The notes under the pieces are model-generated. The model saw nothing but the letters and a program-made list of their open reading frames with translations, did no database searches and was not told where the DNA came from. From assembly GCA_041662545.1 (NCBI GenBank), contig JBAZSH010000004.1, forward strand, positions 1,803 through 65,802: DNA of 64,000 nucleotides. Reading direction: 5' to 3'. The stretch comes from Minisyncoccota bacterium (GTDB taxonomy: Bacteria; Patescibacteriota; Minisyncoccia; Phycocordibacterales; DSPV01). Position 1 is the stretch's first letter, and each line of letters begins with the position of its first letter. Shown here one piece after another: positions 5,563 to 64,000 of the stretch. Position numbers and translations under genes: made by a program.

Positions 5563-6044
5563 GAATTTTAATCGCCTCAGATCATGCCGGTTTTGAATTG
5601 AAAAATACTCTTTTCAATTTTTTGAAAGAGAAAAATTTTGAGGTGGTGGATTGCGGGCCGGATAAATTGGACAAGGAAGATGACTATCCTGATTTTGTCG
5701 CGCCAGTGGCGAAAGAAATTTCCACCGACGAAACGGGAAAAACTTTCGGCATTGTCATCGGCGGTTCTGGCCAAGGTGAAGCTATGTGTGCCAACCGTTT
5801 TCCGCGCGTCCGCGCGGTGGTTTTCTATGGGAATCCGGAGAGGTCAGACCTCTCTTCAGATTTGAGGTCTGACCTCATTAAACTCACGCGTCAGCACAAT
5901 AATGCCAATGTTCTAGCGATTGGCGCGAGGTTTGTATCCAAAGAAGAAGCGAAAAAGGCCGTGCTACTTTGGCTAGAAACACCTTTTGGCGGCGAGACAC
6001 GCCATCTCCGTCGGATTGAAAAAATTGATAAATCAGCACTATGA
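5559..6044 (+). CDS. rpiB: ribose-5-phosphate isomerase B (RpiB/LacAB family). It carries an in-frame REP-like insertion encoding ERSDLSSDLRSDL.
   Basis: MRILIASDHAGFELK...GIVIGGSGQGEAMCANR is RpiB-like. It overlaps the gap stop codon. Confidence 0.75.
   Translation: MRILIASDHAGFELKNTLFNFLKEKNFEVVDCGPDKLDKEDDYPDFVAPVAKEISTDETGKTFGIVIGGSGQGEAMCANRFPRVRAVVFYGNPERSDLSSDLRSDLIKLTRQHNNANVLAIGARFVSKEEAKKAVLLWLETPFGGETRHLRRIEKIDKSAL
5841..5875. repeat. in-frame REP-like inverted doublet in rpiB
   Basis: AGGTCAGACCT-ctcttcagatttg-AGGTCTGACCT. Confidence 0.85.
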
Positions 6045-24092: not shown

Positions 24093-24160
24093 ATATTCTT
24101 ACACTTATTATTCACTATAGGAAATTATAAGTGTATAGGGAAATCTATAATCTAGAAATA

Positions 24161-24175
24161 CCAGGTCTGACCTGG
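24161..24175. repeat. intergenic REP-like singlet CCAGGTCTGACCTGG
   Basis: It has the same GGTCTGACC core. It lies downstream of the 873-aa gene. Confidence 0.5.
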
Positions 24176-24204
24176 TAAATCAAAAAATAAATAAAAATTG
24201 GCAA

Positions 24205-30005: not shown

Positions 30006-31491
30006 CACAATAAAATTTTTGCTGATAATATTTTTTTTGGTACTGATGCCACGATTGGTTTTGCCTGCCCGCCATTGCCAAGCTCAGGCTTTGGCAGGCG
30101 GGGCAGTAGTGGAAATTAGTGAGATTATGTATGATCCAAAAGACACTGACACCAATGCTGGCGGGGAATGGATTGAAATTCACAACACTGATTCTCAAAT
30201 TATTGACTTAACTCAATGGATTTTTTTTGATAATGATACCAATCACAAAATCACTGCCGACAATAGTATCGAAGTGCCAGCTGGTGGCTACGCTGTGATT
30301 TCTAGCAATCTGGAATATTTCAAAAGTTTTTTCGCCAATTATTCCGGGCTTTTGTTTAAGACCTCGTTTTCATTAAACGATGGGGAACCTCTGGCGATAA
30401 AAAGTAATAAGGATGCGGCACCTTCAGATTCAGTAACTTATTCTTCCGACTGGGGGGCCAAAAATGACGGCAATTCTTTGCAAAAAATTAGTGGTCAATG
30501 GAAAGTCGGAGCACCGACACCTGGTGTTGCCAATGTTGCCAGTTCAAACACCTCCAACGACAATCCGCCGACCGATACGCCAACCGGAGAACAAAGCTCC
30601 AACACTAGCCAAACCTCTTCAACCGGCGCCGGCGAAAAACCACCGGAAATGAAAATAGAAATCGTTGCCAATAAAACGGTGGTGGTTGGCGCAGACGCCT
30701 TGTTAGCTGGCAAAGCCTTGGGCGCCGATGGCAAGCCCTTGGATAATGTTCGTTTTCTTTGGAATTTTGGCGATGGCGAAACAAGAGAAGGACAAAATGT
30801 TTTGCATCGTTTTCGTTTCCCCAGCGAATATATTGTTACTTTGGATATCGCCTACGGCAAATGGAGCTCAACGGCTCGCGCTACAATCACAGCCGTCAAA
30901 TCACCATTAACCATATCGCGGATAGAAGAAGGTCCAGCTGGTTTTGTAGAAATTGCCAATGGCGGCAACACTGAATTAGATTTGTTCGGTTGGTATTTAA
31001 AATCTGGAAATACTTCTTTTTTAATTCCAAAAAACACCATCATCGGCGGGGGCAAAAAAATAATTTTTCCCAGTGAAGTGACGAAACTTGATGCTGTCAA
31101 TGTTCTACTTTTATACCCCAATGGAGTAACGGCCGTTGGTTATGAAAAACCCGCTCCAGATCCTGCTCCGCCTCCAGAAAAAATTATTGAAACGAAAATA
31201 ATAACACCGCCTGCGAAACCGGTGAGTTTCCCCGAGTCAGACTCGGGAAATTCGCAGGTCAAACCTGCGAAAACAGAAATAAAAGAAGAAATAGCGGCGG
31301 TTTACAAAGCGGTAGAGGGTGCAGAAATAACAAAGATTGCAGAAGCGACACCAGAAAATAGCGGCGGTTTGGGAATTTGGCTTCTTGCCTTAGGTGGCTT
31401 AATTGTGTTATCACTGGGGGCACTTGCTTTCACCAAACATAAGCCGAGCTTGATTCCAAACGAGACAGAAGAATACAAAATTATTGAATAA
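29992..31491 (+). CDS. cell-surface protein with two lamin-tail domains (LTD), a PKD-like domain and a C-terminal membrane anchor
   Basis: EISEIMYDPKDTD..GEWIEIHN...GGYAVI...NDGEPLAIK is the LTD signature, and it is repeated as FVEIANGGNTELDLFGWYL. FLWNFGDGETREGQNVLHRF is PKD-like. It has a C-terminal TM helix. Confidence 0.7.
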   Translation: MRKSNTIKFLLIIFFLVLMPRLVLPARHCQAQALAGGAVVEISEIMYDPKDTDTNAGGEWIEIHNTDSQIIDLTQWIFFDNDTNHKITADNSIEVPAGGYAVISSNLEYFKSFFANYSGLLFKTSFSLNDGEPLAIKSNKDAAPSDSVTYSSDWGAKNDGNSLQKISGQWKVGAPTPGVANVASSNTSNDNPPTDTPTGEQSSNTSQTSSTGAGEKPPEMKIEIVANKTVVVGADALLAGKALGADGKPLDNVRFLWNFGDGETREGQNVLHRFRFPSEYIVTLDIAYGKWSSTARATITAVKSPLTISRIEEGPAGFVEIANGGNTELDLFGWYLKSGNTSFLIPKNTIIGGGKKIIFPSEVTKLDAVNVLLLYPNGVTAVGYEKPAPDPAPPPEKIIETKIITPPAKPVSFPESDSGNSQVKPAKTEIKEEIAAVYKAVEGAEITKIAEATPENSGGLGIWLLALGGLIVLSLGALAFTKHKPSLIPNETEEYKIIE

Positions 31492-31494
31492 AAA

Positions 31495-32625
31495 ATGGCA
31501 AAAAAAATCCTAATTTTCTCTGTCGCTTATCGGCCATTTATCGGCGGAGCGGAAGTGGCGATAGAAGAAATCACCAAACGATTGGCGAGTGATTTTTCTT
31601 TTGACTTAATCACGGTTAATTTGGACGGCCGCCAAAAACGCGAGGAAAATATTGGTAATGTTAATATCTTCAGAGTCGGCTCCAGCGCTCTGGGTAAATT
31701 TTTGTTTCCGTTTAGGGCGCTTTTGGCGGCAGGCAAACTTCACCGACAAAATCATTACGACAGCACTTGGGCAATTATGGCCAATTATGCCGGCTTTGCC
31801 GCTTTATTTTTCAAAATTTTTCATCCAGCTGTGCCTTTTGTTCTAACTTTACAAGAAGGCGACCCGATTCCAGAAATCAGGCGCAAGGTTTGGTTCGTTT
31901 GGCCGATTTTTAAAATGATTTTCCAACGCGCCGATAAGGTAACGGCAATTTCCAATTATCTGGCACAATGGGGTAAAACAATGGGCGCGAAAAATGTGGA
32001 AGTAATACCGAACGGGGTAGATATAGAGAAGTTTAATCCCGATTTTGCGACGCAAAATCGAGGAAATAAAATCCTGATAACTACCTCGCGGCTGGTGAAA
32101 AAGAATGGGGTGGGAGATATTATTGAGGCCTTAAAACTTTTGCCAGAAAATTTAAAACTGATAATTGTCGGTTCTGGCGAATTGGAGAAAAGTTTAAAGT
32201 TTAAAGTCAAAAGTCTAAAGTTGGAAGAGAGAGTAAGATTTCTAGGTTTTGTAGAACCTGAAAAAATTCCCGAATATCTCTGGACTTCTGATATTTTTAT
32301 CCGCCCTTCACTATCCGAGGGTTTGGGTAATTCGTTCATTGAAGCGATGACAGCTGGTTTACCGATTATTGGCACATCAGTTGGCGGTATTCCGGATTTT
32401 CTTTTTCCTCCCGAAAGGTCAGACCTTAAATCTGGAGAAAGGTCTGACCTTATTCCCACAGGGCTCTTCTGCGAACCAAACAATCCCCAAAGCATTGCCG
32501 AAAAAGTGAAATTACTTTTGGCTGATAATTCACTCCGGCAAAAAATTATCGCCAATGGCCAAAAATTGGTTGCTGAAAAATATGATTGGAATCTTATCGC
32601 CAACCAAATGCGCCAGGTGTTGTAA
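31495..32625 (+). CDS. family-4 glycosyltransferase (GT4). It carries an in-frame REP-like insertion encoding PERSDLKSGERSDLIP.
   Basis: EGLGNSFIEAMTAGLPIIGTSVGGIPDF is the EX7E motif region. Confidence 0.75.
   Translation: MAKKILIFSVAYRPFIGGAEVAIEEITKRLASDFSFDLITVNLDGRQKREENIGNVNIFRVGSSALGKFLFPFRALLAAGKLHRQNHYDSTWAIMANYAGFAALFFKIFHPAVPFVLTLQEGDPIPEIRRKVWFVWPIFKMIFQRADKVTAISNYLAQWGKTMGAKNVEVIPNGVDIEKFNPDFATQNRGNKILITTSRLVKKNGVGDIIEALKLLPENLKLIIVGSGELEKSLKFKVKSLKLEERVRFLGFVEPEKIPEYLWTSDIFIRPSLSEGLGNSFIEAMTAGLPIIGTSVGGIPDFLFPPERSDLKSGERSDLIPTGLFCEPNNPQSIAEKVKLLLADNSLRQKIIANGQKLVAEKYDWNLIANQMRQVL
32415..32451. repeat. in-frame REP-like inverted doublet in the GT4 gene
   Basis: AAGGTCAGACCTT-aaatctggaga-AAGGTCTGACCTT. 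Confidence 0.85.
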
Positions 32626-39349: not shown

Positions 39350-41206
39350 ATGCTTATTTCCTATAACTGGCTTCAGAGATATTTTGAAAAAAAACTACCA
39401 ACAGCAGAAAAGGTGGCTGAAATTTTAACATTCAGTGCTTTTGAAATTGAGAGCGTTGAATCCCTCGACAAACTAGGGACAGAAGAAAAAGATTTTGTTC
39501 TGGATGTGAAAGTCCTGCCCGACCGCGCCCATTACGCGCTTTGCCATCGTGGCATCGCTAGAGAATTGGCGGCGGCAAAACCAGATTTACGGATGTCAGA
39601 CATCCGTCATTTACAGACATCTGACATCTGTAAATTGAAGCTTTTGAAAATAGAAATTGATAACCTCACTGACTGTCGCCGTTACATCGGCCGCCAGATA
39701 GAGGGTGTGAAGGTTGAACCTTCACCAGATTGGATAAAAAAACTGTTGGCTTCCGTTGGTCAGCGTTCAATAAATAACATCGTAGACGCGGGAAATTTCG
39801 TAATGTTTGATATGAATCAACCACTTCACGCTTTTGATGCTGACAAAGTAAAAGGCACCATTCAAATTCGTAGGGCAAAAAAAGGCGAAAAAATTATCAC
39901 TTTGGATGATAAAGAAATTGTCCTTGACCCAGAAATTTTAATTATCGCAGATGACGAAGGGCCACTAGCAATCGCCGGTATCAAGGGTGGTAAAAAAACC
40001 CAAGTAACAGAAAAAACGAAAAATATAATCTTGGAATCAGCTAATTTCAATCCAACACTCATCAGAAAAACCGCCCAAAAATTGAATCTCCAAACTGATG
40101 CCTCCAAGCGTTTTGAAAATGACCTTTCGCCAGCCATTGCCGAGACAGCAATAAACGAATTGTCGACATTAATTGCTGAAGTTTCGCCCAACGCCAAATT
40201 CGGTGAATTAGTAGATGAATATCCCAAACCGGTAAAACAGAAAATCGTTAAAGTTTCTCCTGATTTTGTCGCCCAAAAACTTGGTGTAAAAATTTCCGAA
40301 AAAGAAATCGCGGATATTCTAGCGCGACTTAATATTGTCAACAGTATTATTCCAGCTGAAAGAATGGATCTACAAATTCCCGAGGACTTGGTGGAAGAAA
40401 TCGGCCGGCTTTATGGCTATGATAAAATTCCAGCGGAAAAATTGCCACCCGGTAAAACAAAACCAGAAATTAATAAAAATTTTTACTGGGAAAATCGCAT
40501 CCGACAAATTTTAATGGAATTGGGCTTCTCCGAAATTATGACTTCTTCTTTTCGGCCGAAAGGGGATTTAGAAATAGAAAAACCGCTAGCTTCCGATAAA
40601 GCTTTTTTGCGAACCCAACTCGCCGACCAACTAGCTATCAATTTAAAATTAAATACGCTCAATGCGCCACTCTTGGGTTTGAAAAAGGTAAAAATTTTTG
40701 AAATCGGTAGAGTGTTCCCAAAAAATGGCGAGGGGACCCATCTGGCACTCAACGATTTTGCCGAAGCCAAAACTGCTTTGGAAAAAATTCTCGGCGAAAA
40801 GATTACCACCTCGAGTCGCGATGACATTTTGGAAATCAATCTTGGCGCGCTGATAGAAAACCTTCCTGAACCAAAGACAACAAGGTTAAACCTTGAAGAG
40901 CAGAAAGGTTCAACCTTTAAATCTTTCTCACTCTATCCTTTTATCGTTCGCGATATCGCGGTTTTTGTGCCAACAGATGTTACAGCCGAAAAACTCTGGA
41001 TGACAATTGAAAAGGGAATTGGCAAAGAAAAAAATTTACTAATTAATCATTATCTTTTTGACGAATATCAAAAAGCCGACAAAAAATCTCTAGCTTTTCG
41101 ATTAATTTTTCAAGCGCCAGACCGCACCCTAACCGATACTGAAGCCAATAAAATTATGGGAAAAGTTACCGCCACCGTCTCTCAAAATAACTGGCAAGTA
41201 AGATAG
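39350..41206 (+). CDS. pheT: phenylalanyl-tRNA synthetase beta subunit (shortened, 618 aa). It carries two different in-frame palindromic insertions.
   Basis: MLISYNWLQRYF and the B3/4, B5 and FDX-ACB-like domains are present. One insertion encodes DIRHLQTSDICKL and the other PKTTRLNLEEQKGSTFKS. Confidence 0.8.
   Translation: MLISYNWLQRYFEKKLPTAEKVAEILTFSAFEIESVESLDKLGTEEKDFVLDVKVLPDRAHYALCHRGIARELAAAKPDLRMSDIRHLQTSDICKLKLLKIEIDNLTDCRRYIGRQIEGVKVEPSPDWIKKLLASVGQRSINNIVDAGNFVMFDMNQPLHAFDADKVKGTIQIRRAKKGEKIITLDDKEIVLDPEILIIADDEGPLAIAGIKGGKKTQVTEKTKNIILESANFNPTLIRKTAQKLNLQTDASKRFENDLSPAIAETAINELSTLIAEVSPNAKFGELVDEYPKPVKQKIVKVSPDFVAQKLGVKISEKEIADILARLNIVNSIIPAERMDLQIPEDLVEEIGRLYGYDKIPAEKLPPGKTKPEINKNFYWENRIRQILMELGFSEIMTSSFRPKGDLEIEKPLASDKAFLRTQLADQLAINLKLNTLNAPLLGLKKVKIFEIGRVFPKNGEGTHLALNDFAEAKTALEKILGEKITTSSRDDILEINLGALIENLPEPKTTRLNLEEQKGSTFKSFSLYPFIVRDIAVFVPTDVTAEKLWMTIEKGIGKEKNLLINHYLFDEYQKADKKSLAFRLIFQAPDRTLTDTEANKIMGKVTATVSQNNWQVR
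39586..39634. repeat. second-family in-frame palindromic insertion in pheT
   Basis: The sequence is TTACGGATGTCAGACATCCGTCA followed by TTTACAGACATCTGACATCTGTAAA. It shares the GTCAGAC core. Confidence 0.6.
40883..40919. repeat. in-frame REP-like inverted doublet in pheT
   Basis: AAGGTTAAACCTT-gaagagcaga-AAGGTTCAACCTT. Confidence 0.85.
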
Positions 41207-55910: not shown

Positions 55911-57286
55911 AACATTTTTATTGCTTTGTCAAGACGAGCCAAGGATTCTTCTTTGCCAAAGATTTCCAATAAAGTAAACGGGTCAGGCGATTTTTCCAAA
56001 CCAGACAAAGCCACCCGCAAAGGCCATAGAACCTCCCCTTTCCCCTCTTTTTCCGCCAGTGTCATCAATTCTGTAAGGTTGAACCTTAAGGTTGAACCTT
56101 GCGCTGCCAGAATTTCCCGCGCCCGCCCAAGGCGGGCGCGCGTTTTTCCCTCATCTTTATCTTTCTTCCACAAAAGTAGTTCCTTGGGGTATTCCGGCAT
56201 TTGGAAAAAATATGCCAGCTCTCCCCTTTCCGCCATAATTTTGATGTCGCTAAATTTACTAATTCGTTCCAACACCAATGGCGCGATTTTTTCCAAAATC
56301 TTTTCTGTTTCTGTGTCTTCCCCCAATCCCAAAACTTCTTTGATTTTTTTGATAATTGGTAATTGGTAATTAGGCATTTTCTTGATGTGTTCCCTATTCA
56401 TCCAATCCAATTTTTCCACATCAAAAATCGCGCCACTCTGCTGAACTTTTGCCAAATCAAAATTTTCTATCAATTCTTTCACAGAAAAAATCTCTTGCTC
56501 ATTGCCCGGATTCCAACCAAGCAAAGCCAAATAATTTATCAATGCTTCGGGCAAATATTCTTGCTGCCGATAAAAAGCCACCGAGACGCTTTCGCCGTGT
56601 TTCCGTTTGGAAAGTTTAGAACGATCCGGCGCGAGTATTAGTGGAATGTGAGCGTAAAACGGCTGCTTGCCCGCCGATGAGGCGGGCTCGCCATCTCCCA
56701 GCGCCCGCCAAATCAGAATTTGGCGGGGCGTATTAGAAATATGGTCCTCGCCGCGAATAATGTGCGTGATTCCCATTTCCCTATCATCCACCACATTGGC
56801 AAAATGAAAAATCGGCTCGTCCAAACTTTTGGCAATTACAAAATCGCCAAGCTCTTTGGTGTCAAAAGCAATCTCGCCTTTTATCAAATCGTTGAAAACA
56901 ATTTTTTGGCCGGGATTTTTGAAACGAATCACTTCATCGCGCTTCCCCTCCCCGCCCTCTTCTTTGGACACATAGGCCACGCCGGAATCCAAAAGTTGTC
57001 GCAAATATTTTTTATAAATCTCCAGCCGATCCGACTGGCGAAAAAATTCATCATGCTCAATCCCCAACCATTCCAAATTTTCCAAAATATCTTTTTCGTA
57101 TTCCGGCTTACCGCGTTCTTTGTCGGTATCTTCCACCCGCAAAATAAACTTCCCACCGTGTTTGCGGACAAACAAAAAATTAAACAATGCTGTTCGCGCG
57201 CCACCCAAATGTAGCCACCCCGTCGGTGACGGCGCGAAGCGCGCCCTTACTTCTTTTTCTCCTTTCTCCATTTTTTTCTCCATCAT
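55907..57286 (-). CDS. gltX: glutamyl-tRNA synthetase. It carries an in-frame REP-like tandem encoding GSTLRFNLT.
   Basis: RFAPSPTGWLHLGGARTALFNF is a HIGH-class motif, and LSKRKHG is KMSKS-like. Confidence 0.85.
   Translation of the reverse strand: MMEKKMEKGEKEVRARFAPSPTGWLHLGGARTALFNFLFVRKHGGKFILRVEDTDKERGKPEYEKDILENLEWLGIEHDEFFRQSDRLEIYKKYLRQLLDSGVAYVSKEEGGEGKRDEVIRFKNPGQKIVFNDLIKGEIAFDTKELGDFVIAKSLDEPIFHFANVVDDREMGITHIIRGEDHISNTPRQILIWRALGDGEPASSAGKQPFYAHIPLILAPDRSKLSKRKHGESVSVAFYRQQEYLPEALINYLALLGWNPGNEQEIFSVKELIENFDLAKVQQSGAIFDVEKLDWMNREHIKKMPNYQLPIIKKIKEVLGLGEDTETEKILEKIAPLVLERISKFSDIKIMAERGELAYFFQMPEYPKELLLWKKDKDEGKTRARLGRAREILAAQGSTLRFNLTELMTLAEKEGKGEVLWPLRVALSGLEKSPDPFTLLEIFGKEESLARLDKAIKML
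56075..56100. repeat. in-frame REP-like tandem in gltX
   Basis: AAGGTTGAACCTT AAGGTTGAACCTT. Confidence 0.8.
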
Positions 57287-57305: not shown

Positions 57306-58049
57306 TCAGCTTTTAACAGGTTTTGTCTTGATTTCGCAGGTCAAACCTGCGAAATTGTCATCTTTTTCAATATCGGCTCTTCCTAAAATAAAATCTTTCG
57401 CAAAATTCTTAAAATCTTTTGGCGAAGAAAAAACCTCGCCTAGCAACCCTTTTTCTAAAATTAGTGAATATTCTCTATTGCCAGTATAATCAGCCAAACT
57501 ACAAAAAGGATAATTTATTGCCCACCGAAAGGCGTCTTCAAAATTATCACGGGCATTTTTTAAACCTCCTGGATATAACTCCATTGGATTTTTAACCATA
57601 ATATAAACCGCCAGATAACGAAAATATTTGTCATCTTGGATAGTTCTTGCTTTATATGAACCTTGAAAAATACTTCCTGCTTCGCCATATTTCAGATTAA
57701 AATGACCAGTCATACTATTGCCGAGCTTTTGCATAAACTTTGCTATCCCACCATTGATAGTTTCTTTAGCTAATATATGAAAATGATTAGGCATTAATGT
57801 GTAAGAAAGGATGGATGTTAGAGGCTTCTGTTTTGGCCAATTAATTGGTCGATCAAATATCTTCGCACCCCTTTTTACATTTTCCTCAAGTTCTTCTTCC
57901 CAACGCTCAGAAATATATTCATCATTTAAATGACGAAGAATTTTTAAAAAACGCCAATGATCACTCTCGTCTTTTACAATCGGCAATTTTTTGGCACCTC
58001 TTTTTAAAATGTGAACATAATTTCCAACTGTGAATGGTTCTTTTCGCAT
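57306..58049 (-). mobile_element. REP-associated tyrosine transposase (RAYT)-like IS200-family HUH transposase, flanked by REP/REPIN hairpins
   Basis: YTLMPNHFHILAKE is the HuH motif and YLAVYIMVKNP is the catalytic Tyr-x4-NP motif. The length is 247 aa. A REP singlet overlaps the 3' end (57331-57355) and a REPIN doublet sits at 58078-58126 just upstream. Confidence 0.6.
57331..57355. repeat. REP-like palindrome ATTTCGCAGGTCAAACCTGCGAAAT. It encodes the RAYT C-terminus.
   Basis: It is a perfect palindrome apart from the CAAA centre. Confidence 0.8.
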
Positions 58050-58077
58050 AAAAAATGTACTTATATTATCTCGCCTA

Positions 58078-58126
58078 TTTCTGCGCAGGTCAAACCTGCG
58101 AAATTCGCAGGTTTGACCTGCGCAGA
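58078..58126. repeat. REPIN-like doublet, a 49-bp perfect palindrome made of two inverted REPs
   Basis: TTCTGCGCAGGTCAAACCTGCGAA|ATTCGCAGGTTTGACCTGCGCAGAA. Confidence 0.85.
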
Positions 58127-58146
58127 ATGCAGATTTGCTAAATTAG

Positions 58147-58578
58147 CTATTTCTTGAACTTGGAGATCTGGGCATCTGCCTGCCGAAATTTTTGCCAAGA
58201 TTTTTCTAACCGAAACATTTTACCGCGCACATCCATATAACGCCGAGACAGGTCTTCAATCAAGTCCGAAGAAAGTTTTGCCCCATAAATGCCGGCCACC
58301 TGCTCAAGATAGACGATCATTTTATTACAACCAAGCATAGCTTTTTCAAGTGTAACAACCGCCACCTTGAAATCCGAAAAACGCATACCGTGCGACTCGG
58401 CGATAAAAAGCGGAATTGAGAGAGCGCAATTGGTCATCCCTTCCAGTAAATCGTATTTAAGTTTTACCAACTCTGGCCTAATATCTTTGTAAAAAATCAC
58501 CGCGCCTTCAAGCGTCTTTTGATACACCTCTAAATCGCGAAAACTGCGAATTGGTTTTTTGGGTTTAAAAGTGTACAT
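58147..58578 (-). CDS. four-helix-bundle protein (23S rRNA intervening-sequence protein family)
   Basis: FRDLEVYQKTLEGA... matches the typical LEVWQ-type N-terminus. The length is 143 aa. Confidence 0.55.
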   Translation of the reverse strand: MYTFKPKKPIRSFRDLEVYQKTLEGAVIFYKDIRPELVKLKYDLLEGMTNCALSIPLFIAESHGMRFSDFKVAVVTLEKAMLGCNKMIVYLEQVAGIYGAKLSSDLIEDLSRRYMDVRGKMFRLEKSWQKFRQADAQISKFKK

Positions 58579-58587
58579 TTTATTAAT

Positions 58588-59853
58588 CTACACGATAATC
58601 GCTTTCCTCTCAATATTCTCTCTCGGCACCTCTACTTTTAAACCATCTTTAAATCTTACGAATCTTTTCTTTTTTCCACTTAATTTTTTCACCACATGGA
58701 GCGGATAAAATTCAAAATAATCTTTTTCGTCAAACCAACCGCATTTAAATTCAAAAAGTCGCAATCCAGTCAACCGACTCATCGCCATAGCATACCAGGT
58801 CAATTGCTCAATCGGCTGTTCTTTGGCGGCATTTGGTTTGTAATCCAGCAAATGAACGCAACCGTTACGAATCTGTATAAAGTCAATATGACCAGTCAAT
58901 AATTTCGGCATCGGGACCGGCCGTCCCGATGCCGATTTTGACTTGACTCCTGTGGTATTATTTCTTTTTAGTTCGATTAATCCATTATCAGTCACTTTAA
59001 ACTTCAACACATTTTCCATATGCTCCACATCTTCGCGCCGAATATATACCGGCACTTCAGTGGCGACAGTACAAGAATCATTGGCAATAAAAAATCTTTG
59101 CAATTCTTCATGCCGCGCTTTATTCTCCGTAACCGCTTTCAAAACAAAATTGGCAAGCAGATTGGCAAAATTTTCTTTGCTTCTAACAATCATATCGGCT
59201 TTGTCAAATTTGCTTTTTATTTCCGACATCCGCGCCCCTTCTTGGAAATATTGATGCGGGGTTTCCGAGGAAACGCTGTCAAGATATTCTTTTAGTGGCT
59301 TCAAATTCCGATTCCTAAATTCCTCCAACATCAAATAGGTTTTTGCCCTGTGATAACGAAATCGGTAAAGTTGGCGATGCGCCATTGTTACCACCTCAAC
59401 CGTCTCCTCTGGTTTACAATACTTAACCGCCCACGGCCGTAATCTTTCATAACGGCAAAGTGGCTTGTATTCCTCTATCCACCCAGAAAGCGTTTGCGGG
59501 TCCGGCGCCGAACCAAATTTTTTCTTTACCAAGGCGCAAGCGTATTCAAGAGTAAAGCCGAGATTGTAATAGCTCATACTATCAATAATTATTCTCAGTG
59601 GAAATTTTTTACCTTTGATATCTCGCGCCGTAAATGTCCGACCGCAAACGGGATTACGGCAAAGATATAATTGCGCTTCGCCAAATTTATTTTTTCTTAC
59701 GCCTCTTTTTACAAAATCCACGGACTCACAATAAGGACAAAATTCAGCAGGTTTTTGAACAATTATTTCCGTATCACGCGTAGATTTTACCGCCGTATCA
59801 CGACTTTCTTGAGTTTTTGCCACTAACCCCGTCATTCGTGATATTTTTTTCAT
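58588..59853 (-). CDS. hypothetical protein with an N-terminal transposase-type C4 zinc ribbon and a C-terminal PD-(D/E)xK-like nuclease motif
   Basis: The zinc ribbon is CPYCES...GEAQLYLCRNPVCGRTFTARD. The C-terminal motif is HIDFIQIRNGCVHLLDYKP (a D...D.K pattern). Confidence 0.35.
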   Translation of the reverse strand: MKKISRMTGLVAKTQESRDTAVKSTRDTEIIVQKPAEFCPYCESVDFVKRGVRKNKFGEAQLYLCRNPVCGRTFTARDIKGKKFPLRIIIDSMSYYNLGFTLEYACALVKKKFGSAPDPQTLSGWIEEYKPLCRYERLRPWAVKYCKPEETVEVVTMAHRQLYRFRYHRAKTYLMLEEFRNRNLKPLKEYLDSVSSETPHQYFQEGARMSEIKSKFDKADMIVRSKENFANLLANFVLKAVTENKARHEELQRFFIANDSCTVATEVPVYIRREDVEHMENVLKFKVTDNGLIELKRNNTTGVKSKSASGRPVPMPKLLTGHIDFIQIRNGCVHLLDYKPNAAKEQPIEQLTWYAMAMSRLTGLRLFEFKCGWFDEKDYFEFYPLHVVKKLSGKKKRFVRFKDGLKVEVPRENIERKAIIV

Positions 59854-59868
59854 TATTTTTTCATCAAA

Positions 59869-62800
59869 TTATTCTATTATTGGAGGTGTCGTGGACGCCA
59901 CATCAGGAGTGGTCGTAGCTGTCTCCACCGGAATTTCTATCGTTGGTGGCGGTTCTATTGGTGGAATAATTGGCGGAGTAGTCGTCCCCGTGCCTGATGT
60001 TGTCGTGGCTCCTGCGGTATCGGTCCCGGAACCCACATTCACCACCCGCGTGCTCGTCGCCGTTAAATTATTATTATCCGTCGCCGAGTAATCAATGGTG
60101 TATGAAGTGCTGGTGGAAGTGTCCAGAGAAATCGTGCTTACTTGCGCGCCATTCACAAAGTAATGCACGCTCAAATCAAGTCCATTGCTGTCTCGGGCAA
60201 TCACCCCCAAATCAACATAGGTCGCCCCAACAGAAATTTCGGCTGGATTGTTTCCTTGAATCAAAATCGTCGGGACACCAACCACCCCTTCATCCACTCC
60301 TTGATAAGGAGGGGTGCCGTCAGGCGGGGTGATGCCCCCGCCCGCCTGCACCAACATCGCTTTCAGTTGGTCTTTACTAACACAAACATCATCAACACAC
60401 AGCTGATTTTCCACCCGCACAGTGCCCACAACCAGATTAGCGATCCGTGTAAGGGTTTGACTGATGGCCACTCCCCAATCGGCAAATTTCGCTAAAATCG
60501 CCTCCGTAACCCGCGAGATAAAACTTTGGTCAGCAATAACATTGGCCGTGCTACTGGCGATAATTTGGTCAATGCTTGTTGAAGCAAAAGCTCGGGCAAG
60601 CTCGGCAGTGGAACTAGCAATTTCATTTATCCGTGTGTTCAGTTCCTGCACCCCCTTAATCACCTTCCACGAACTAACCTCCGACACGCCGTAATATCCA
60701 TCCGAACCCATTGAAACCAAATCATCATAACCAGCGGCAAGAAGTTCTTGCGCGACTACACCAGTTTTCTTGTCTCCAGAAGCGATAACTTTGTAATCTT
60801 TAATAGGCAAACCCAAGAGGTATGGTAATTCAGGCATAGCGGCAACGATGTCGGTCTTTAATCTAGCGTCTGATGAGCAGGTTGGCGTCACTCCGCCCGA
60901 CTCGGGATTCCAGGTGCAGTTGCCGTCGGTGTCAAGAAGTTGGAACATATCTCCATCACTAGTATACTCAACTGACAATTTGTAAAGGGGACTCGTCGTC
61001 CCGATGCCGACGTTGCCGGAATCCAGTAACTTAAATAAGACCGACGTCCCAGCCCCATTCCAAATTTCGTAATTCTCGCCCGTGGCAGGCAGGTATGTTT
61101 GAAGCGTGTCATCGGGTGTTATCCTAAAAATTGTCGATAAGCCACCTGCTGCCCTACGCGCTTTATATCCAGAATTGTTTCCAATGATTATAGACCCGCC
61201 AACAATTTCAAGCTTGTCGCCTGGCCCATTCGTTCCAATGCCGATGTTGCCGGTTGTTGCTTGGACTACGACAGCACTTGCAACACCCGCAGTATTTAAT
61301 TTCAAATCTCCAGTCAGAGCACTACTTCCGACAGTTACATTTTCCGAAGCATCAGCCCCTAGAACATTTCGTGCCGCTCCAGCCACGTTTTGGACTTGAT
61401 AATAGAAGGCGTTATCTATTTGAATATTTCCAACAGCCACATCCAGTTTTGCCTGTGGGTCCGTCGTCCCGATGCCGACGTTGCCGCCGTTTGGTGCTAA
61501 CAAAGTTTGTCCACTAATGTTGTCAACTTGAAATCTTGATGTTGTTTGGTCAGCACTAGTAATAATAAAACCTTGAGTTCCTACACCACCACCCGTGTTT
61601 GTTGTCGGATAAAGATATAGAAACTCATTAGCATTTAGACCAAAATTCCAATTTCCCCTGTTCCCGACAGTATCGCTAATTCTTAACGCACTGGTTGCAC
61701 CACTGACAGTTGCCGTAACTTGTAATTTAGACGCTGGACTCGTCGTCCCGATGCCGACGTTGCCGCTTGCCGTAGCGAAATATGCCGAACCAGTGGAACC
61801 AATCTGCGTGGTGGAAGCATTACCAAAAGTCTGTAAAGCAGTCCAAACATTTGCGTTTGCCATATTCAAATCAAGAGCCGACGAACCACCGAGAGAGATT
61901 GGTGAGGTGCCGACGGTAACGCTTCCGCTACTTGTCAGACCGATGGTGGAGTTGGCAAGGTAGGAATTGATGACGGAACTAGCGGGCAAGATGACGCCTC
62001 CCGAAATTGTCAGACCGTTGGTGCTGGAGAGACCAGCTGTCGCCACTCCGCCGGCGAAAGTTGAGGTAGCAGTGGAGGTAGAGGTAATCTTGGAAACCTC
62101 CAGACCATTCCAGAAGGAAGCGAATCGGGAAAGAATATCGCCTGCGAATGTTGTTGTCCCCGTGCCGGTGTAAGTGGTATTGCCCGCGACCGACAGATTG
62201 CCCGAAAGCGTAGCGTCGCCGAGGTAAGTATTATGAGCGACGATACCATTGCCAATAAAGTTATGCGTCCCTTCCACTTCTATGTCATAGACCTGCTCGG
62301 CGGGCAGTTTTTCTATCTTTACGATTTTATCCCAACGAGTAGTGTCTCTTTGTCCTTCAATAGCGATTTCCTGACCTTCTTTAATATCTATCACCTTGCG
62401 CCACATACCGTTTTTGCTGTCCACAGGGGGAGCGCTTGACAAGTAACCTCTATGGGTATAAGCTACAGGCACTATCCCCGAGGCGGAGACGTTCGTAGTC
62501 TCCGCCTCATTGTTTTTATCACTGGCGCCAACATACTCCACCAAATGACGCACAGAATTGAGGTGTATAAATTTAGAACCAAATAAACTGCGTAAATCCC
62601 CGGCGGAACTTTCTGTTGTGCTTACGAGTCGGACTGATTGTTTTTTCTCAAGCAAGTGCTTCAATACATCGTAATAATCTCCGTCACCAGTCATTACTAT
62701 CGCGGCATCATATTCGCCAATCCGACGCATCATCTCAAAAGTCATGGCGGAATCAACATCCGCTTTCGCCTCGCGTCTCGCAATGAGACGAGTTAGTACA

Positions 62801-64000
62801 AGAACCAACTCATATCCAACACGGAGTAAGGTGTCATACAAATTCGCCCTTTTCTTATTGTGAGTAGTACCACAAAAGAAAAACACACGAGAGACCCCAT
62901 AGCGACTAGTCAGATATGTATAAAGTTTTTCATAATCAACCTCCCACCCCTCACGCAAGGTAGCGTGATAAACATTGGAAGCGTCAATAAAAGCAAAAAC
63001 ACGACTATGGCTATTAACCATTGACGTGTTTTTGTCAGAGTTAAATACATTACCATCGTTGGCACATGTGATTCTCTTTAGAGAATTGATGGATGTATTT
63101 CGATTAAGTTGTCCTCCAACCCCTGTATTGGAGTGAGCGAGGGCTTGGTGCCATACCTCGCTAGCTGGCTTTATTTTATCAAAAGCAATATTTTTTGACA
63201 ACACAAAATACGGATGCTCAGCTGTGGTGCGAATGGTTTTGCCACTGGAGGTAGTAAGTTTGAAAATCGGTCTTGTTCCCATCTCCATCATAACTTTGAC
63301 TTTGCGATAAACAATTTTGCCTGTAGTTTCGTCTAAAGTTGCGATTTCGTCGCCTGGTTGAATATCCTTAATGGCGACTTCATCGTAGATGAAGTCGGAT
63401 TCCTCAAGGTCAGACCTTTCTTTAGATCCAAGGTCTGACCTTTTCCCTCCGACTTTCCCTTTCTTACGCCGTCTGCGGCGAAGTTTCGTATCTCCCGTCA
63501 CACAATGACCCATTAGATTGGTAATACCTGAAATCAATGCTCCGCCTTGAACGGCGAAGTCCGTCCCCGGCGTGCTCGTCCCCACCCCCACCTTGCCGTT
63601 AGAATCAATAATAAAAGCGGTGGAGGTGGCGGAGGCGGTGGAAGAAGAAATTGTGAACAAAGGCGTAGTGCCGAGTGAAGCGCCGGCCACCGAAAACCGA
63701 GCCCAAGGGGAAGTCGTCCCGATACCGATATTGCCTGCTGTTTCCACGCCAGAAACTGCCGAGCCGTTATACATTCCCGTCCCATACAAAACATTGCCGA
63801 TATTTAGTTGTTGCGAGCCGGTGTTGGATGGCAAGTCCACATTTTGACCAATGGCGATATTATATGCTCCGGTAGTTAGAGAAAATCCAGATTGATAACC
63901 CAAGAGAGTATTGTAATCGCTTCCAGTAGACGCAGAATATCCAGATTGATAACCGATATAAGTGCCACCTTGATTGTTGTAATTCGCAGTACCAGCTCCA
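59869..64000 (-). CDS. giant tail-fibre-like surface protein (more than 1376 aa; the 5' end lies beyond the window). It has GIGTTSP repeat modules, an S74 intramolecular-chaperone domain and an inserted intein.
   Basis: Repeats include NVGIGTTSP, NIGIGTN and GKVGVGTST. GVVAQELLAAGYDDLVSMGSDGYYGVSEV..IKGVQEL resembles the endosialidase chaperone domain. The reading frame stays open upstream of the TTG at 63903. Confidence 0.65.
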   Translation of the reverse strand, partial: GAGTANYNNQGGTYIGYQSGYSASTGSDYNTLLGYQSGFSLTTGAYNIAIGQNVDLPSNTGSQQLNIGNVLYGTGMYNGSAVSGVETAGNIGIGTTSPWARFSVAGASLGTTPLFTISSSTASATSTAFIIDSNGKVGVGTSTPGTDFAVQGGALISGITNLMGHCVTGDTKLRRRRRKKGKVGGKRSDLGSKERSDLEESDFIYDEVAIKDIQPGDEIATLDETTGKIVYRKVKVMMEMGTRPIFKLTTSSGKTIRTTAEHPYFVLSKNIAFDKIKPASEVWHQALAHSNTGVGGQLNRNTSINSLKRITCANDGNVFNSDKNTSMVNSHSRVFAFIDASNVYHATLREGWEVDYEKLYTYLTSRYGVSRVFFFCGTTHNKKRANLYDTLLRVGYELVLVLTRLIARREAKADVDSAMTFEMMRRIGEYDAAIVMTGDGDYYDVLKHLLEKKQSVRLVSTTESSAGDLRSLFGSKFIHLNSVRHLVEYVGASDKNNEAETTNVSASGIVPVAYTHRGYLSSAPPVDSKNGMWRKVIDIKEGQEIAIEGQRDTTRWDKIVKIEKLPAEQVYDIEVEGTHNFIGNGIVAHNTYLGDATLSGNLSVAGNTTYTGTGTTTFAGDILSRFASFWNGLEVSKITSTSTATSTFAGGVATAGLSSTNGLTISGGVILPASSVINSYLANSTIGLTSSGSVTVGTSPISLGGSSALDLNMANANVWTALQTFGNASTTQIGSTGSAYFATASGNVGIGTTSPASKLQVTATVSGATSALRISDTVGNRGNWNFGLNANEFLYLYPTTNTGGGVGTQGFIITSADQTTSRFQVDNISGQTLLAPNGGNVGIGTTDPQAKLDVAVGNIQIDNAFYYQVQNVAGAARNVLGADASENVTVGSSALTGDLKLNTAGVASAVVVQATTGNIGIGTNGPGDKLEIVGGSIIIGNNSGYKARRAAGGLSTIFRITPDDTLQTYLPATGENYEIWNGAGTSVLFKLLDSGNVGIGTTSPLYKLSVEYTSDGDMFQLLDTDGNCTWNPESGGVTPTCSSDARLKTDIVAAMPELPYLLGLPIKDYKVIASGDKKTGVVAQELLAAGYDDLVSMGSDGYYGVSEVSSWKVIKGVQELNTRINEIASSTAELARAFASTSIDQIIASSTANVIADQSFISRVTEAILAKFADWGVAISQTLTRIANLVVGTVRVENQLCVDDVCVSKDQLKAMLVQAGGGITPPDGTPPYQGVDEGVVGVPTILIQGNNPAEISVGATYVDLGVIARDSNGLDLSVHYFVNGAQVSTISLDTSTSTSYTIDYSATDNNNLTATSTRVVNVGSGTDTAGATTTSGTGTTTPPIIPPIEPPPTIEIPVETATTTPDVASTTPPIIE
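62230..63504 (-). mobile_element. intein (425 aa) whose central domain is a NYN/PIN-like nuclease rather than a LAGLIDADG/HNH homing endonuclease
   Basis: The splicing blocks are present: block A CVTGDTKL after the extein ...NLMGH, block B TTAEHPYF, blocks F and G VYDIEVEGTHNFIGNGIVAHN, and a +1 Thr. The central domain is the NYN domain FIDASNVYH...FFFCGT...DVDSAMTFEMM...IVMTGDGDYYDV. Confidence 0.65.
63406..63443. repeat. in-frame REP-like inverted doublet inside the intein of the giant protein
   Basis: AAGGTCAGACCTT-tctttagatcc-AAGGTCTGACCTT encodes KRSDLGSKERSDLEE. Confidence 0.85.

What the first reader, a model, noticed from the sequence alone, without database searches (positions are those of the whole stretch)
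57306..58126. Complete REPtron: a RAYT-like HUH transposase flanked by REPIN hairpins that share the core of the dispersed in-frame elements
The 247-aa minus-strand gene carries the IS200/RAYT catalytic signatures. These are the HuH motif MPNHFHIL and the catalytic tyrosine motif YIMVKNP (Y-x4-NP).

A 49-bp perfect palindrome of two inverted REPs lies immediately upstream, TTCTGCGCAGGTCAAACCTGCGAA|ATTCGCAGGTTTGACCTGCGCAGAA. A single REP, ATTTCGCAGGTCAAACCTGCGAAAT, overlaps the 3' end and supplies the last codons.

The inner core AGGTCAAACCT fits the AGGTYNRACCT consensus of the dispersed in-frame elements. The RAYT is therefore the plausible trans-acting mobiliser of that family. REPtrons are established in Proteobacteria but are not a recognised feature of CPR genomes.
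Basis: partly seen in the sequence, partly recalled or inferred. Interest (0 to 1): 0.8.

Follow-up and report, generated by a model that had tools for sequence, protein, structure and literature searches.

The report
Hairpin-bounded HUH transposase cassette in Patescibacteria
A 247-residue single-strand-DNA transposase-like gene sits between matching DNA hairpins, and the same layout recurs across Patescibacteria with a different hairpin in each genome; in close relatives this gene-plus-hairpin unit has been swapped at one fixed chromosomal site, so it is a new variant of the known REP/RAYT (REPtron) theme, not a textbook example.

Summary

The arrangement is a family trait. Of 80 homologous loci, 61 have a perfect hairpin within 120 nt upstream and 59 have one at the stop codon, against about 6 and 8 expected. 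In 45 of 50 loci with both, the two hairpins share the inner stem. Hairpin sequence differs between genomes and between paralogs in one genome.

It is not a canonical REPtron:
- The tyrosine motif is Y-x4-NP, not Y-x3-NP.
- There is no GT[AG]G foot.
- Cognate hairpins are rarely dispersed: 1 extra copy in 63 kb here, 11 in 626 kb overall.

In five related genomes (GltX 76-90% identical) the slot upstream of gltX holds four cassette types 51-59% identical, one of them inverted, between flanks 81-97% identical.

The proposed role as mobiliser of the abundant in-frame AAGGT doublets is plausible at family level, because the A-R-G-T inner stem is conserved. It is unproven for this gene and contradicted in other genomes.

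The parts
57306..58049 (-). ORF of 247 aa: a Y1 HUH (RAYT-like) tyrosine transposase/nuclease, member of a Patescibacteria-wide family
57777..57785 (-). Codons for H89-F90-H91, the HuH metal-binding motif within N88-H-F-H91
   Evidence: N88, H89 and H91 are invariant in 25 homologues. They align with EHMH of E. coli RayT.
57585..57605 (-). Codons for Y149-I-M-V-K153-N154-P155, the catalytic tyrosine motif Y-x4-NP
   Evidence: Y149, K153 and N154 are invariant. Y149 aligns with the catalytic Y115 of E. coli RayT. The motif is one residue longer than the class-2 'Y---NP' of PMC6006769.
58079..58127 (.). Upstream REP doublet (REPIN-like): a 49-nt perfect palindrome made of two inverted CGCAGGT-YAR-ACCTGCG hairpins
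   Evidence: I2. ssDNA fold -31.5 kcal/mol, z -12.5. Doublets in the same position occur in L006, L007, L024, L056, L073 and L087.
57331..57355 (.). 3' REP: a 25-nt perfect hairpin, in frame in codons about 231-239 (NFAGLTCEI)
   Evidence: (I10). The family-wide position at or near the stop codon is seen in 59 of 80 loci. Closest relatives L083 and L084 carry the same REP type at -56 and -25 from the stop.
58065..58093 (-). Promoter-like site: -35 TTGACC lies inside the gene-proximal REP, then 17 nt, then -10 GATAAT
   Evidence: 10 of 12 consensus matches. Across the family a TATAAT-like box lies between hairpin and ATG in 36 loci. In 22 of these it ends 7 nt before the ATG, and the hairpin centre usually sits about 19-23 nt upstream of it. 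Function is inferred.
57306..58146 (.). The exchangeable cassette: hairpins, promoter and gene, running from just after the stop of the upstream 143-aa gene to the RAYT-like stop codon
   Evidence: DNA identity to syntenic L089 and L090 falls from 0.82-1.00 in the flanks to 0.0-0.85 (mostly 0.3-0.7) inside. Junctions are shown. Neighbour proteins are 81-97% identical while the RAYT-like proteins are 51-59%.
31231..31271 (+). The only dispersed copy of the cognate REP in the window (31251-31271, TTCGCAGGTCAAACCTGCGAA). It is paired with a different hairpin (31231-31247, CCCGAGTCAGACTCGGG) and lies in frame (PESDSGNSQVKPAK) in an LTD/PKD surface-protein gene
39589..39607 (+). In-frame hairpin ACGGATGTCAGACATCCGT inside pheT. 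It is of the REP type that flanks the RAYT-like cassette of relatives L090 and L094, so it may be a relic of an earlier cassette type
   Evidence: The relic reading is inference.

Best explanation
The locus is a compact cassette bounded by hairpins. It encodes a Y1 (HUH) tyrosine transposase of a family that is widespread in Patescibacteria. The architecture resembles a REPtron, but the unit behaves more like a mobile or exchangeable element than a domesticated RAYT.

Shown:
- The protein has the RAYT/IS200 fold with an invariant HuH motif and tyrosine.
- Its gene is bracketed by copies of one genome-specific perfect palindrome. One copy lies where the -35 of the promoter is expected, one lies at or over the stop codon, and in many relatives a third lies in frame inside the gene.
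- Hairpin type tracks the protein subclade and the paralog.
- In close relatives, different cassette types occupy the same slot upstream of gltX, and one of them is inverted.

Inferred:
- The enzyme binds the hairpins when they extrude as single-stranded DNA, for instance on the lagging-strand template.
- It cuts and rejoins DNA near their feet through a 5'-phosphotyrosine intermediate on Y149, with H89 and H91 holding the metal.
- This would allow excision and insertion of the hairpins, of REPIN-like doublets, or of the whole cassette.
- Binding at the promoter-overlapping hairpin may autoregulate the gene.
- Occasional hairpin copies land elsewhere, including in frame in coding sequence (31251-31271).
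For: Protein:
- Pfam Y1_Tnp is above its gathering score.
- N88/H89/H91, F128-Q-G130 and Y149/K153/N154 are invariant in 25 homologues.
- AF2 model pLDDT 88. Foldseek best hit is 4er8_A at E 7.6e-5.
- hhalign puts Y149 on the catalytic Y115 of E. coli RayT.

Cognate hairpins:
- 61 of 80 loci have an upstream hairpin and 59 of 80 a stop-proximal one. Background is 0.64 per kb, so about 6 and 8 are expected.
- 45 of 50 loci with both share the inner 6-bp stem, and sequences differ between genomes.
- Two paralogs within 10 kb in L027 and L029 each have their own hairpin upstream and at the stop. In L029 each also has one inside the gene.
- The closest relatives (59-64% identity) keep the same CGCAGGT-CAG-ACCTGCG hairpin in unrelated gene neighbourhoods.

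DNA-level action:
- In 22 of 36 loci a TATAAT-like box ends 7 nt before the ATG, so the upstream hairpin is probably not transcribed.

Exchange:
- Flanking proteins are 81-97% identical but RAYT-like proteins only 51-59%, with three REP types in W, L089 and L090.
- L090 and L094 have GltX 76% identical but RAYT-like 84% identical and the same REP.
- L087 has a fourth type in the opposite orientation in the same slot, flanked by palindromes of 46-49 nt.

Dispersal:
- 11 distant cognate copies occur in 626 kb against about 0.005 expected.
Against: - No activity data exist.
- No second identical copy of the gene was seen in any locus. The only paralogs are 31-34% identical, which is unlike an active insertion sequence.
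- Cognate hairpins are rare away from the gene and mostly lie within 2 kb of it.
- Hairpin orientation up versus down is mixed: 24 direct, 17 inverted and 4 with differing loops. No conserved guide or cleavage motif was found next to the hairpins.
- L065 and L066 are syntenic over 19.5 kb with the gene in place, so inheritance is vertical at least over some time scales.
- The slot pattern could come from homologous recombination after transfer, or from differential loss in an ancestral paralog array. It need not reflect transposition.
- In this window the -10 to ATG spacing is 15 nt, not the family-typical 7 nt.
Confidence: 0.6

Rival explanations
1. The locus is a classical domesticated REPtron. 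A single-copy, vertically inherited RAYT does not move itself. It mobilises in trans the abundant in-frame AGGTYNRACCT doublets scattered through this genome.
For: - The flanking REPs and the dispersed elements share AGGT-YNR-ACCT.
- Positions -4 to -1 of the stem (A, G/A, G, T) are the conserved part of the family's hairpins in 45 genomes.
- The dispersed doublets (13-nt REP, 11-nt spacer, inverted 13-nt REP) have the same build as the doublet flanking the family gene in L062. They resemble those in L055 and L073.
- The one exact dispersed copy at 31251 sits in the same kind of in-frame doublet.
- There is one gene copy in 64 kb.
Against: - The abundant doublets have outer stems (A/G)AAGGT and a conserved ATCTGA-like spacer, unlike the CGCAGGT flanks with a 5-nt spacer.
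- Only 1 copy of the flanking subtype is dispersed.
- In ten other loci whose gene has an AGGT-type hairpin, only 2 dispersed hairpins share that core.
- L001 and L079, and largely L014, have in-frame AGGT doublets although their family genes carry unrelated hairpins.
- The doublets in gltX and in the L001/L087 orthologues are shared by descent, so they are old rather than recently mobilised.
- The cassette is not vertically inherited at this site.
Confidence: 0.25
2. The palindromes are regulatory DNA or RNA elements of the gene: an operator at the promoter and a terminator or stabiliser at the 3' end. The protein has a host function or a purely autoregulatory one, and no transposition of hairpins or cassette occurs. 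Cassette diversity would then reflect recombination only.
For: - The upstream hairpin is positioned over the inferred -35.
- The downstream hairpin is fixed at the stop codon.
- Cognate hairpins are rarely found elsewhere.
Against: - The catalytic HuH and Tyr residues are invariant across the family. That would be unnecessary for a mere binding protein.
- Distant copies of cognate hairpins do occur, far above chance.
- In-frame copies occur inside the gene and in other genes.
- The 3' hairpins lack the T-run of intrinsic terminators on the gene strand in this window.
Confidence: 0.12
3. Chance: two of the genome's many dispersed palindromes simply landed next to an IS200-like gene.
For: The window has about 14 such loci in 64 kb.
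Against: - The two flanks carry the same rare subtype, which has 4 copies in the window, 3 of them here.
- The arrangement recurs in 45-61 of 80 independent genomes, with matching hairpins that differ between genomes.
Confidence: 0.01

Closest known systems
E. coli RayT (TnpA-REP, YafM) and its REPtron; PDB 4ER8
   Same: - The HuH motif, the W/F-Q motif and the catalytic Tyr align.
- The gene is flanked by its cognate REP hairpins and REP doublets.
- Copy number is low.
   Different: - Sequence identity is 11-14%.
- The protein is 247 aa against 165 aa, with about 90 extra, mostly helical, C-terminal residues.
- The tyrosine motif is Y-x4-NP instead of Y-x3-NP.
- The REPs here are perfect, short-looped palindromes without the 5' GT[AG]G foot.
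- The flanking REP is not abundant in the sampled DNA.
- The cassette is exchanged between relatives, whereas RAYTs are reported as vertically inherited (PMC5581495).
TnpA-Y1 subclass 2.4 (Bertels group 4; Cyanobacteria and Bacteroidetes) of Quentin et al. 2018, PMC6006769
   Same: - The HuH motif is NH[IFV]H.
- REPs flank the gene and are also inserted in frame inside the tnpA-REP gene itself. This matches the in-frame internal hairpins seen here in relatives.
   Different: [quoted passage not shown]
- Here the internal copies lie before HuH (about residues 55-65) or after Y (about residue 190), and there is no foot.
- The Y motif differs, and the host phyla differ.
TnpA-Y1 subclass 2.1 (Bertels group 1, 'TIRYT'), PMC6006769
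   Same: - Median length is 238 aa.
- HuH is NH[YF]H.
- An FQ variant replaces the W motif.
- There is a C-terminal extension, and HGT is suspected.
   Different: - Subclass 2.1 genes have no REP-like hairpins nearby. This family almost always does.
- The Y motif is Y[IV]HLNP there and Y[IV]MVKN[PTV] here.
IS200/IS605 insertion sequences (IS608, ISDra2)
   Same: - A Y1 HUH transposase sits between two subterminal hairpins.
- They are the second-best structural matches.
- The unit appears in unrelated contexts and is swapped at one site.
   Different: - TnpA(IS200) is about 150 aa with Y-x3-Q.
- Those elements are multi-copy, with about 99% identical copies within a genome, and often carry tnpB.
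- Here copies are single, or paralogs are only 31-34% identical. There is no tnpB, and the hairpins are perfect.
Rickettsia palindromic elements (RPEs); comparison from my own knowledge, not tested here
   Same: Short palindromic repeats inserted in frame into protein-coding genes, including housekeeping genes.
   Different: RPEs are about 100-150 bp and have no identified cognate transposase. The elements here are hairpins of 13-25 nt, or doublets of about 40 nt, with a candidate enzyme family.

Membership tests
Y1 HUH transposase superfamily (Pfam PF01797, TnpA-Y1) | HuH metal-binding motif plus a single catalytic tyrosine on a C-terminal helix | tested here: met
   NHFH (88-91) and Y149 are invariant in 25 homologues. 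Pfam scores 29.5 bits against GA 23. Both align with the E. coli RayT HuH motif and Y115.
Y1 HUH transposase superfamily (Pfam PF01797, TnpA-Y1) | IS200/RAYT-type fold | tested here: met
   [not shown]
RAYT / TnpA-REP (class 2 of PMC6006769) in a REPtron | Tyrosine motif Y-x3-NP | tested here: not met
   The family motif is Y-[IV]-M-V-K-N-[PTV], that is Y-x4-N, one residue longer.
RAYT / TnpA-REP (class 2 of PMC6006769) in a REPtron | Passes NCBIfam REP_Tyr_transpos (NF047646) equivalog cut-off | tested here: not met
   28 bits against a cut-off of 80. It is nonetheless the only NCBIfam hit.
RAYT / TnpA-REP (class 2 of PMC6006769) in a REPtron | Gene flanked on both sides by copies of one REP family (REPtron arrangement) | tested here: met
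   Window. Family: 61 of 80 loci upstream, 59 of 80 downstream, and 45 of 50 matching.
RAYT / TnpA-REP (class 2 of PMC6006769) in a REPtron | Each paralog is associated with its own REP family | tested here: met
   In L027 and L029, two paralogs within 10 kb each have a distinct hairpin type.
RAYT / TnpA-REP (class 2 of PMC6006769) in a REPtron | REP carries a 5' GT[AG]G tetranucleotide at the foot of the hairpin (canonical subclasses) | tested here: not met
   6 of 90 flanking hairpins have GT[AG]G near the foot, and no flank position is conserved. Subclass 2.6 and class 3 are also atypical in this respect.
RAYT / TnpA-REP (class 2 of PMC6006769) in a REPtron | The flanking REP is highly repeated across the genome (tens to hundreds of copies) | tested here: inconclusive
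   There is 1 distant copy in 63 kb here and 11 in 626 kb across 45 loci, far above chance but sparse. Whole genomes were not available.
RAYT / TnpA-REP (class 2 of PMC6006769) in a REPtron | Vertical inheritance, congruent with housekeeping genes | tested here: not met
   L089 and L090 have GltX 90% identical but RAYT-like 54%. L090 and L094 have GltX 76% but RAYT-like 84%. Four cassette types occupy one slot, one of them inverted. One syntenic pair, L065/L066, is consistent with vertical descent.
RAYT / TnpA-REP (class 2 of PMC6006769) in a REPtron | Sequence-specific cleavage of REP single-stranded DNA | not testable with these tools
   Requires biochemistry.
IS200/IS605 insertion sequences (TnpA-Y1 subclass 1.1) | Short (about 150 aa) TnpA with a Y-x3-Q motif | tested here: not met
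   247 aa with Y-x4-NP. Subclass definition.
IS200/IS605 insertion sequences (TnpA-Y1 subclass 1.1) | Subterminal hairpins at both ends of the element | tested here: met
   Hairpins lie within about 8-30 nt of the cassette boundaries defined by comparison with L089, L090 and L094.
IS200/IS605 insertion sequences (TnpA-Y1 subclass 1.1) | Several near-identical copies per genome | tested here: not met
   No second copy in the window. Only 3 of 81 loci have a second family gene, at 31-34% identity. The test is limited to 2-64 kb per genome.
REPIN (REP doublet forming a hairpin) | Two inverted REPs with a short spacer that can fold into one long hairpin | tested here: met
   58079-58127 folds as a 23-bp stem at -31.5 kcal/mol.
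REPIN (REP doublet forming a hairpin) | A replicating population of many copies in the genome | tested here: inconclusive
   No other CGCAGGT-type doublet occurs in the window. AAGGT-type doublets are frequent, but they are a different subtype.

The most novel reading that the evidence does not exclude
Patescibacteria carry a previously undescribed lineage of self-contained Y1 HUH elements, each made of hairpin, leaderless promoter, gene and hairpin. These elements replace one another at preferred chromosomal slots. Successive residents leave behind 'fossil' hairpin and REPIN populations. Such relics would be the source of the short palindromic peptide-coding insertions (RSDL, QVRPA, GLT and similar) found in frame in housekeeping and surface proteins across the radiation.
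Probability: 0.3. Interest if true: 0.8.

Novelty: new variant of a known kind. Interest (0 to 1): 0.65.

Why it matters
REP/RAYT systems are the best-known case of a bacterial transposase that serves short hairpin repeats rather than itself. They have been described mainly in Proteobacteria, Cyanobacteria and Bacteroidetes.

This locus shows that ultra-small, streamlined Patescibacteria genomes carry a large sister family. It has 395 cluster representatives (one per cluster at 50% identity) at E<=1e-30. Its architecture is stereotyped and easy to recognise, and its hairpin specificity co-evolves with the protein.

The locus also offers a rare natural experiment. The same chromosomal slot is occupied by four protein/hairpin pairs in close relatives. 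That makes enzyme-hairpin specificity, cassette exchange and the origin of in-frame palindromic insertions in essential genes (gltX, pheT, transketolase, rpiB) directly testable.

For annotation, these genes are currently labelled simply 'transposase' or 'hypothetical', and at least one is called with a wrong start.

Tried and rejected
- Exact-protein look-ups of the window ORF and of the NCBI version P0001 found no contig on record. The rest of the source genome could therefore not be read, and genome-wide RAYT and REP counts were impossible.
- A profile search of PDB sequences gave only insignificant hits: ISDra2 TnpA at E 0.26, and bromodomains by chance. Fold comparison was needed instead.
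- Rfam found only sub-threshold matches to miRNA precursor families on the palindrome, so no known RNA family applies.
- PADLOC found no defence-system match for the gene or its two upstream neighbours.
- Neighbour-gene clustering over 81 loci found no conserved partner gene. The largest cluster covered 6 loci. The 143-aa four-helix-bundle gene and the Zn-ribbon/PD-(D/E)XK gene are therefore not part of the system.
- A search for a conserved guide or cleavage motif beside the hairpins found none.
- I tested whether loci with AGGT-type flanking hairpins have more dispersed AGGT elements. They do not.
- I first read L087/L088 as a possible empty-site polymorphism. That was rejected. The Y1 gene at the end of L088 is a different, classical class-2 type (YIHNNP). 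L087 does contain a family member next to gltX on the other strand.
- Four literature searches found no description of RAYT/REP systems in Patescibacteria.
Full report
**1. Observation**

ORF 57306..58049 on the minus strand encodes 247 aa containing MPNHFHIL and YIMVKNP.

A perfect 49-nt palindrome (24+1+24 nt) lies at 58079-58127, 30 nt upstream of the ATG. A 25-nt perfect hairpin (11-bp stem) lies at 57331-57355 inside the last codons, encoding NFAGLTCEI, with seven further codons before the stop.

As single-stranded DNA these fold at -31.5 and -11.7 kcal/mol, with z-scores of -12.5 and -6.1.

The core AGGTYNRACCT occurs 22 times in the window against 0.15 expected. The exact subtype CGCAGGTCAAACCTGCG occurs four times: three around this gene and one at 31253-31269.

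The only corrections are that the palindrome ends at 58127, and that the 3' hairpin is near rather than at the very end of the ORF.

**2. The protein**

- Pfam Y1_Tnp scores 29.5 bits against a gathering score of 23.
- NCBIfam REP_Tyr_transpos is the only NCBIfam hit but is far below its cut-off, 28 against 80 bits.
- There are 361 close homologues of 226-260 aa, almost all from Paceibacteria or Patescibacteria MAGs and labelled 'transposase' or unnamed.
- NCBI's version of this very gene (P0001) starts 21 codons too late. Homologues start MRKEPF/MRVEPF, like the 247-aa reading.
- In an alignment of 25 homologues, N88, H89, H91, F128-Q-G130, Y149, K153 and N154 are invariant.
- An AlphaFold model is confident, with pLDDT 88.
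- A profile alignment to E. coli RayT, taken from NC_000913.3, places NHFH on the HuH motif, FQG on the WQ motif and Y149 on the catalytic Y115.
- The tyrosine motif is Y-x4-NP throughout the family. This is one residue longer than the Y-x3-NP that defines class 2 (RAYT) proteins in Quentin et al. 2018 (PMC6006769).
- A profile search of 1.84 billion cluster representatives finds 395 at E<=1e-30 and 7099 at E<=1e-10.

**3. The hairpins are cognate to the gene**

A scan of one genome per species returned at least 493 relatives. I analysed the 80 best loci, all from different assemblies and nearly all Patescibacteria.

Enrichment:
- Perfect hairpins with stems of at least 7 bp occur within 120 nt upstream of the start in 61 of 80 loci.
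- They occur between -60 and +90 of the stop in 59 of 80 loci.
- The background in the same loci is 0.64 per kb, so about 6 and about 8 loci respectively would be expected.

Matching and specificity:
- In 45 of the 50 loci that have both, the upstream and downstream hairpins share the same inner 6-bp stem, while the sequence differs from genome to genome.
- Several loci carry doublets like the one here (L006, L007, L024, L056, L073).
- About a dozen loci carry a further in-frame copy inside the gene. Most lie about 500-580 nt before the stop, in a variable surface loop around residues 55-65.
- Three loci hold two family paralogs, 31-34% identical to the query. In L027 and L029 each paralog has its own hairpin type at each of these positions.
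- The closest relatives of the window protein (P0005, 64%; P0013, 59%) carry the same CGCAGGT-CAG-ACCTGCG hairpin. It lies at -45/-47, internally (read as SQVRPA), and at the 3' end, yet in unrelated gene neighbourhoods.

Features of the hairpins:
- No GT[AG]G foot and no conserved flanking motif exists (6 of 90 hairpins).
- Stem positions -4 to -1 from the loop are conserved family-wide as A, G/A, G, T (1.34, 0.85, 1.36 and 0.37 bits).
- Chance co-occurrence is excluded.

**4. Position relative to the promoter**

In 36 loci a TATAAT-like box lies between the upstream hairpin and the ATG. In 22 of these it ends exactly 7 nt before the ATG, which implies a leaderless transcript. The hairpin centre usually lies about 19-23 nt upstream of the box, over the expected -35.

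In the window, the best promoter-like site uses TTGACC inside the gene-proximal REP as the -35, followed by 17 nt and GATAAT (10 of 12 matches). The -10 to ATG spacing here is 15 nt, not 7.

The upstream hairpin therefore probably acts as DNA, not RNA. Autoregulation is a reasonable inference, but it is not shown.

**5. Dispersal of the cognate hairpin is modest**

Outside +/-150 nt of the gene, the cognate hairpin (7+7 bp of stem) occurs 11 times in 626 kb over 45 loci. Chance would give about 0.005. These copies are mostly intergenic and within 0.2-2 kb of the gene.

In the window the single distant copy (31251-31271) is 26 kb away. It lies in frame in an LTD/PKD surface-protein gene and is paired with a different hairpin, CCCGAGTCAGACTCGGG.

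**6. The cassette is exchanged at a fixed slot**

Relatives found through GltX show the same gene order as the window: Zn-ribbon/PD-(D/E)XK gene, 143-aa four-helix-bundle gene, RAYT-like gene, gltX. This holds in L089 and L090.

| Comparison | Identity |
|---|---|
| Neighbour proteins among W, L089, L090 | 81-97% |
| RAYT-like proteins among W, L089, L090 | 51-59% |

Each of the three has a different hairpin:
- W: CGCAGGT-YAR-ACCTGCG
- L089: CTGTGGACAC-GGC-GTGTCCACAG
- L090: ACAGATGT-CAG-ACATCCGT

DNA identity falls from 0.82-1.00 to mostly 0.3-0.7 between the stop of the 143-aa gene (58147) and the RAYT-like stop (57306). The conserved gltX promoter region resumes after that point.

The protein trees are incongruent:

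| Pair | GltX identity | RAYT-like identity | REP type |
|---|---|---|---|
| L090 vs L094 | 76% | 84% | same |
| L089 vs L090 | 90% | 54% | different |

In L087 (GltX 82% identical to the window) the gene next to gltX lies on the opposite strand. It is also a family member (NHLH, YVMVKN) and is flanked on both sides by palindromes of 46-49 nt of a fourth type.

So four cassette types, one of them inverted, occupy one slot in five related genomes. This argues against in-situ divergence and against simple vertical inheritance.

Three mechanisms remain possible:
- transposition of the whole hairpin-bounded unit;
- homologous replacement after transfer;
- differential loss from an ancestral array.

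One pair, L065/L066, is syntenic over 19.5 kb with the gene in place. No neighbour gene is conserved across the 81 loci.

**7. Relation to the dispersed in-frame elements**

The window's abundant elements are mostly doublets. They consist of a 13-nt hairpin (A/G)AAGGT-YNR-ACCTT, a spacer of about 11 nt often containing ATCTGA or its complement, and the inverted hairpin.

They lie in frame in rpiB, both transketolase genes, a GT4 glycosyltransferase, pheT, gltX and the large surface protein.

Evidence for a link:
- They share the family-conserved inner stem with the RAYT-like flanks.
- They have the same build as the doublet flanking the family gene in L062 and resemble those in L055 and L073.

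Evidence against a link to this particular gene:
- Their outer stems and spacers differ from this gene's REPs.
- Ten other loci with AGGT-type flanks show only 2 dispersed hairpins sharing that core.
- L001 and L079 have such in-frame doublets next to family genes with unrelated hairpins. L014 does too, although three of its doublets are GGAGGTC-type and a second paralog there is followed by a GGAGGC hairpin.
- Some doublets are shared by descent between genomes, namely the gltX element in W, L089 and L090 and the L001/L087 element. They are therefore old.
- The window also holds one in-frame copy of the L090-type hairpin in pheT (39589-39607). This fits a model in which earlier cassette types left relic hairpins, but that is inference.

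The mobiliser claim is therefore plausible for the enzyme family and unproven for this gene.

**8. Comparison with known systems**

- The closest system is the RAYT/REPtron (E. coli RayT, 4ER8).
- In-frame REP copies inside the transposase gene are known from TnpA-Y1 subclass 2.4.
- Length, NH[YF]H and FQ recall subclass 2.1, which lacks REPs.
- The hairpin-bounded, context-hopping unit recalls IS200/IS605. However, the protein is not of the Y-x3-Q type, and no multi-copy behaviour was seen.
- Quentin et al. do not mention any candidate-phyla lineage.
- Four literature searches found no description of such a system in Patescibacteria.

**9. Verdict**

The locus is a real, well-supported feature. 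It is a new variant of the REP/RAYT theme:
- a distinct Y motif;
- no GTAG foot;
- a stereotyped arrangement of two or three hairpins around a probably leaderless gene;
- low hairpin dispersal;
- cassette exchange at a conserved slot.

Biochemical activity, the mode of exchange and the link to the in-frame doublets remain inferred.

Noticed in passing
window 5838-5877, 7093-7131, 8745-8803, 32415-32451, 40881-40918, 56074-56100, 63406-63442 (doublets or triplets); singles at 14771-14783, 24159-24177, 39707-39725: REPIN-like doublets of (A/G)AAGGT-YNR-ACCTT hairpins, centres usually 24 nt apart. They lie in frame in rpiB, transketolase N and C genes, a GT4 glycosyltransferase, pheT, gltX and a surface protein. 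They encode peptides such as ERSDL..RSDL, GSTL and RFNL. The spacers often contain ATCTGA or its complement.
   Followed up: partly
window 56074-56100 (gltX); L089 4018-4036; L090 7125-7143: The in-frame element in gltX is orthologous in three genomes. It is a single AAAAAGGTTGAACCTTTTT in L089 and L090 and a tandem pair in the window. These insertions can therefore be old and evolve in place.
   Followed up: partly
L001 5665-5700 versus L087/L088 1196-1240: An orthologous in-frame doublet (DSSK-RSDLSVDLRSDL-SNPG) has both loop centres flipped between the two genomes (CAG..CTG versus CTG..CAG), with the spacer unchanged. This is a compensatory pair of changes that preserves pairing in the long doublet hairpin.
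   Followed up: no
window 59869-63903 (-): A 1344-aa surface-type protein carries an intein (Intein_splicing, residues 175-558) that encloses a NYN nuclease domain (302-446). It also has an Ig-like domain and a Peptidase_S74 chaperone domain. An in-frame hairpin doublet sits just before the intein.
   Followed up: partly
window 58147-59853 (-): This is a gene pair. One is a 143-aa protein with weak similarity to 23S rRNA intervening-sequence (four-helix-bundle) proteins. The other is a 421-aa protein with an IS1-type zinc ribbon and weak PD-(D/E)XK similarity. They are 90-97% identical in L089 and L090, more conserved than GltX. In L087 they are replaced by PemK/Laminin_G/RhuM genes, so the region between the surface protein and gltX is a variable island.
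   Followed up: partly
L088 1-1030 versus L087 1-930: Two assemblies share an identical GltX and are 99.8% identical over the remaining 8.9 kb of the locus, but they differ at one end. L088 has a classical class-2 Y1 gene (YIHNNP) followed by CAGATG-rich repeats and a PemK toxin gene. L087 has the end of the intein-bearing surface protein there.
   Followed up: no
family loci L002-L077, 7 nt upstream of the ATG: Most family genes have a TATAAT-like box ending exactly 7 nt before the start codon. This implies leaderless mRNAs.
   Followed up: partly
window 56118-56140 and 63375-63397: Two further perfect 10-bp-stem hairpins of unrelated sequence (CGCGCCCGCC-CAA-GGCGGGCGCG and CGACTTCATC-GTA-GATGAAGTCG) lie in frame immediately beside AAGGT-type elements, in gltX and in the surface protein.
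   Followed up: no
protein P0107 (homologue), alignment columns about 55-100: One homologue has an insertion of about 35 residues with repeated peptides (IPIIGNS..IPIIGTD). It lies in the same variable loop where other relatives carry the in-frame hairpin.
   Followed up: no
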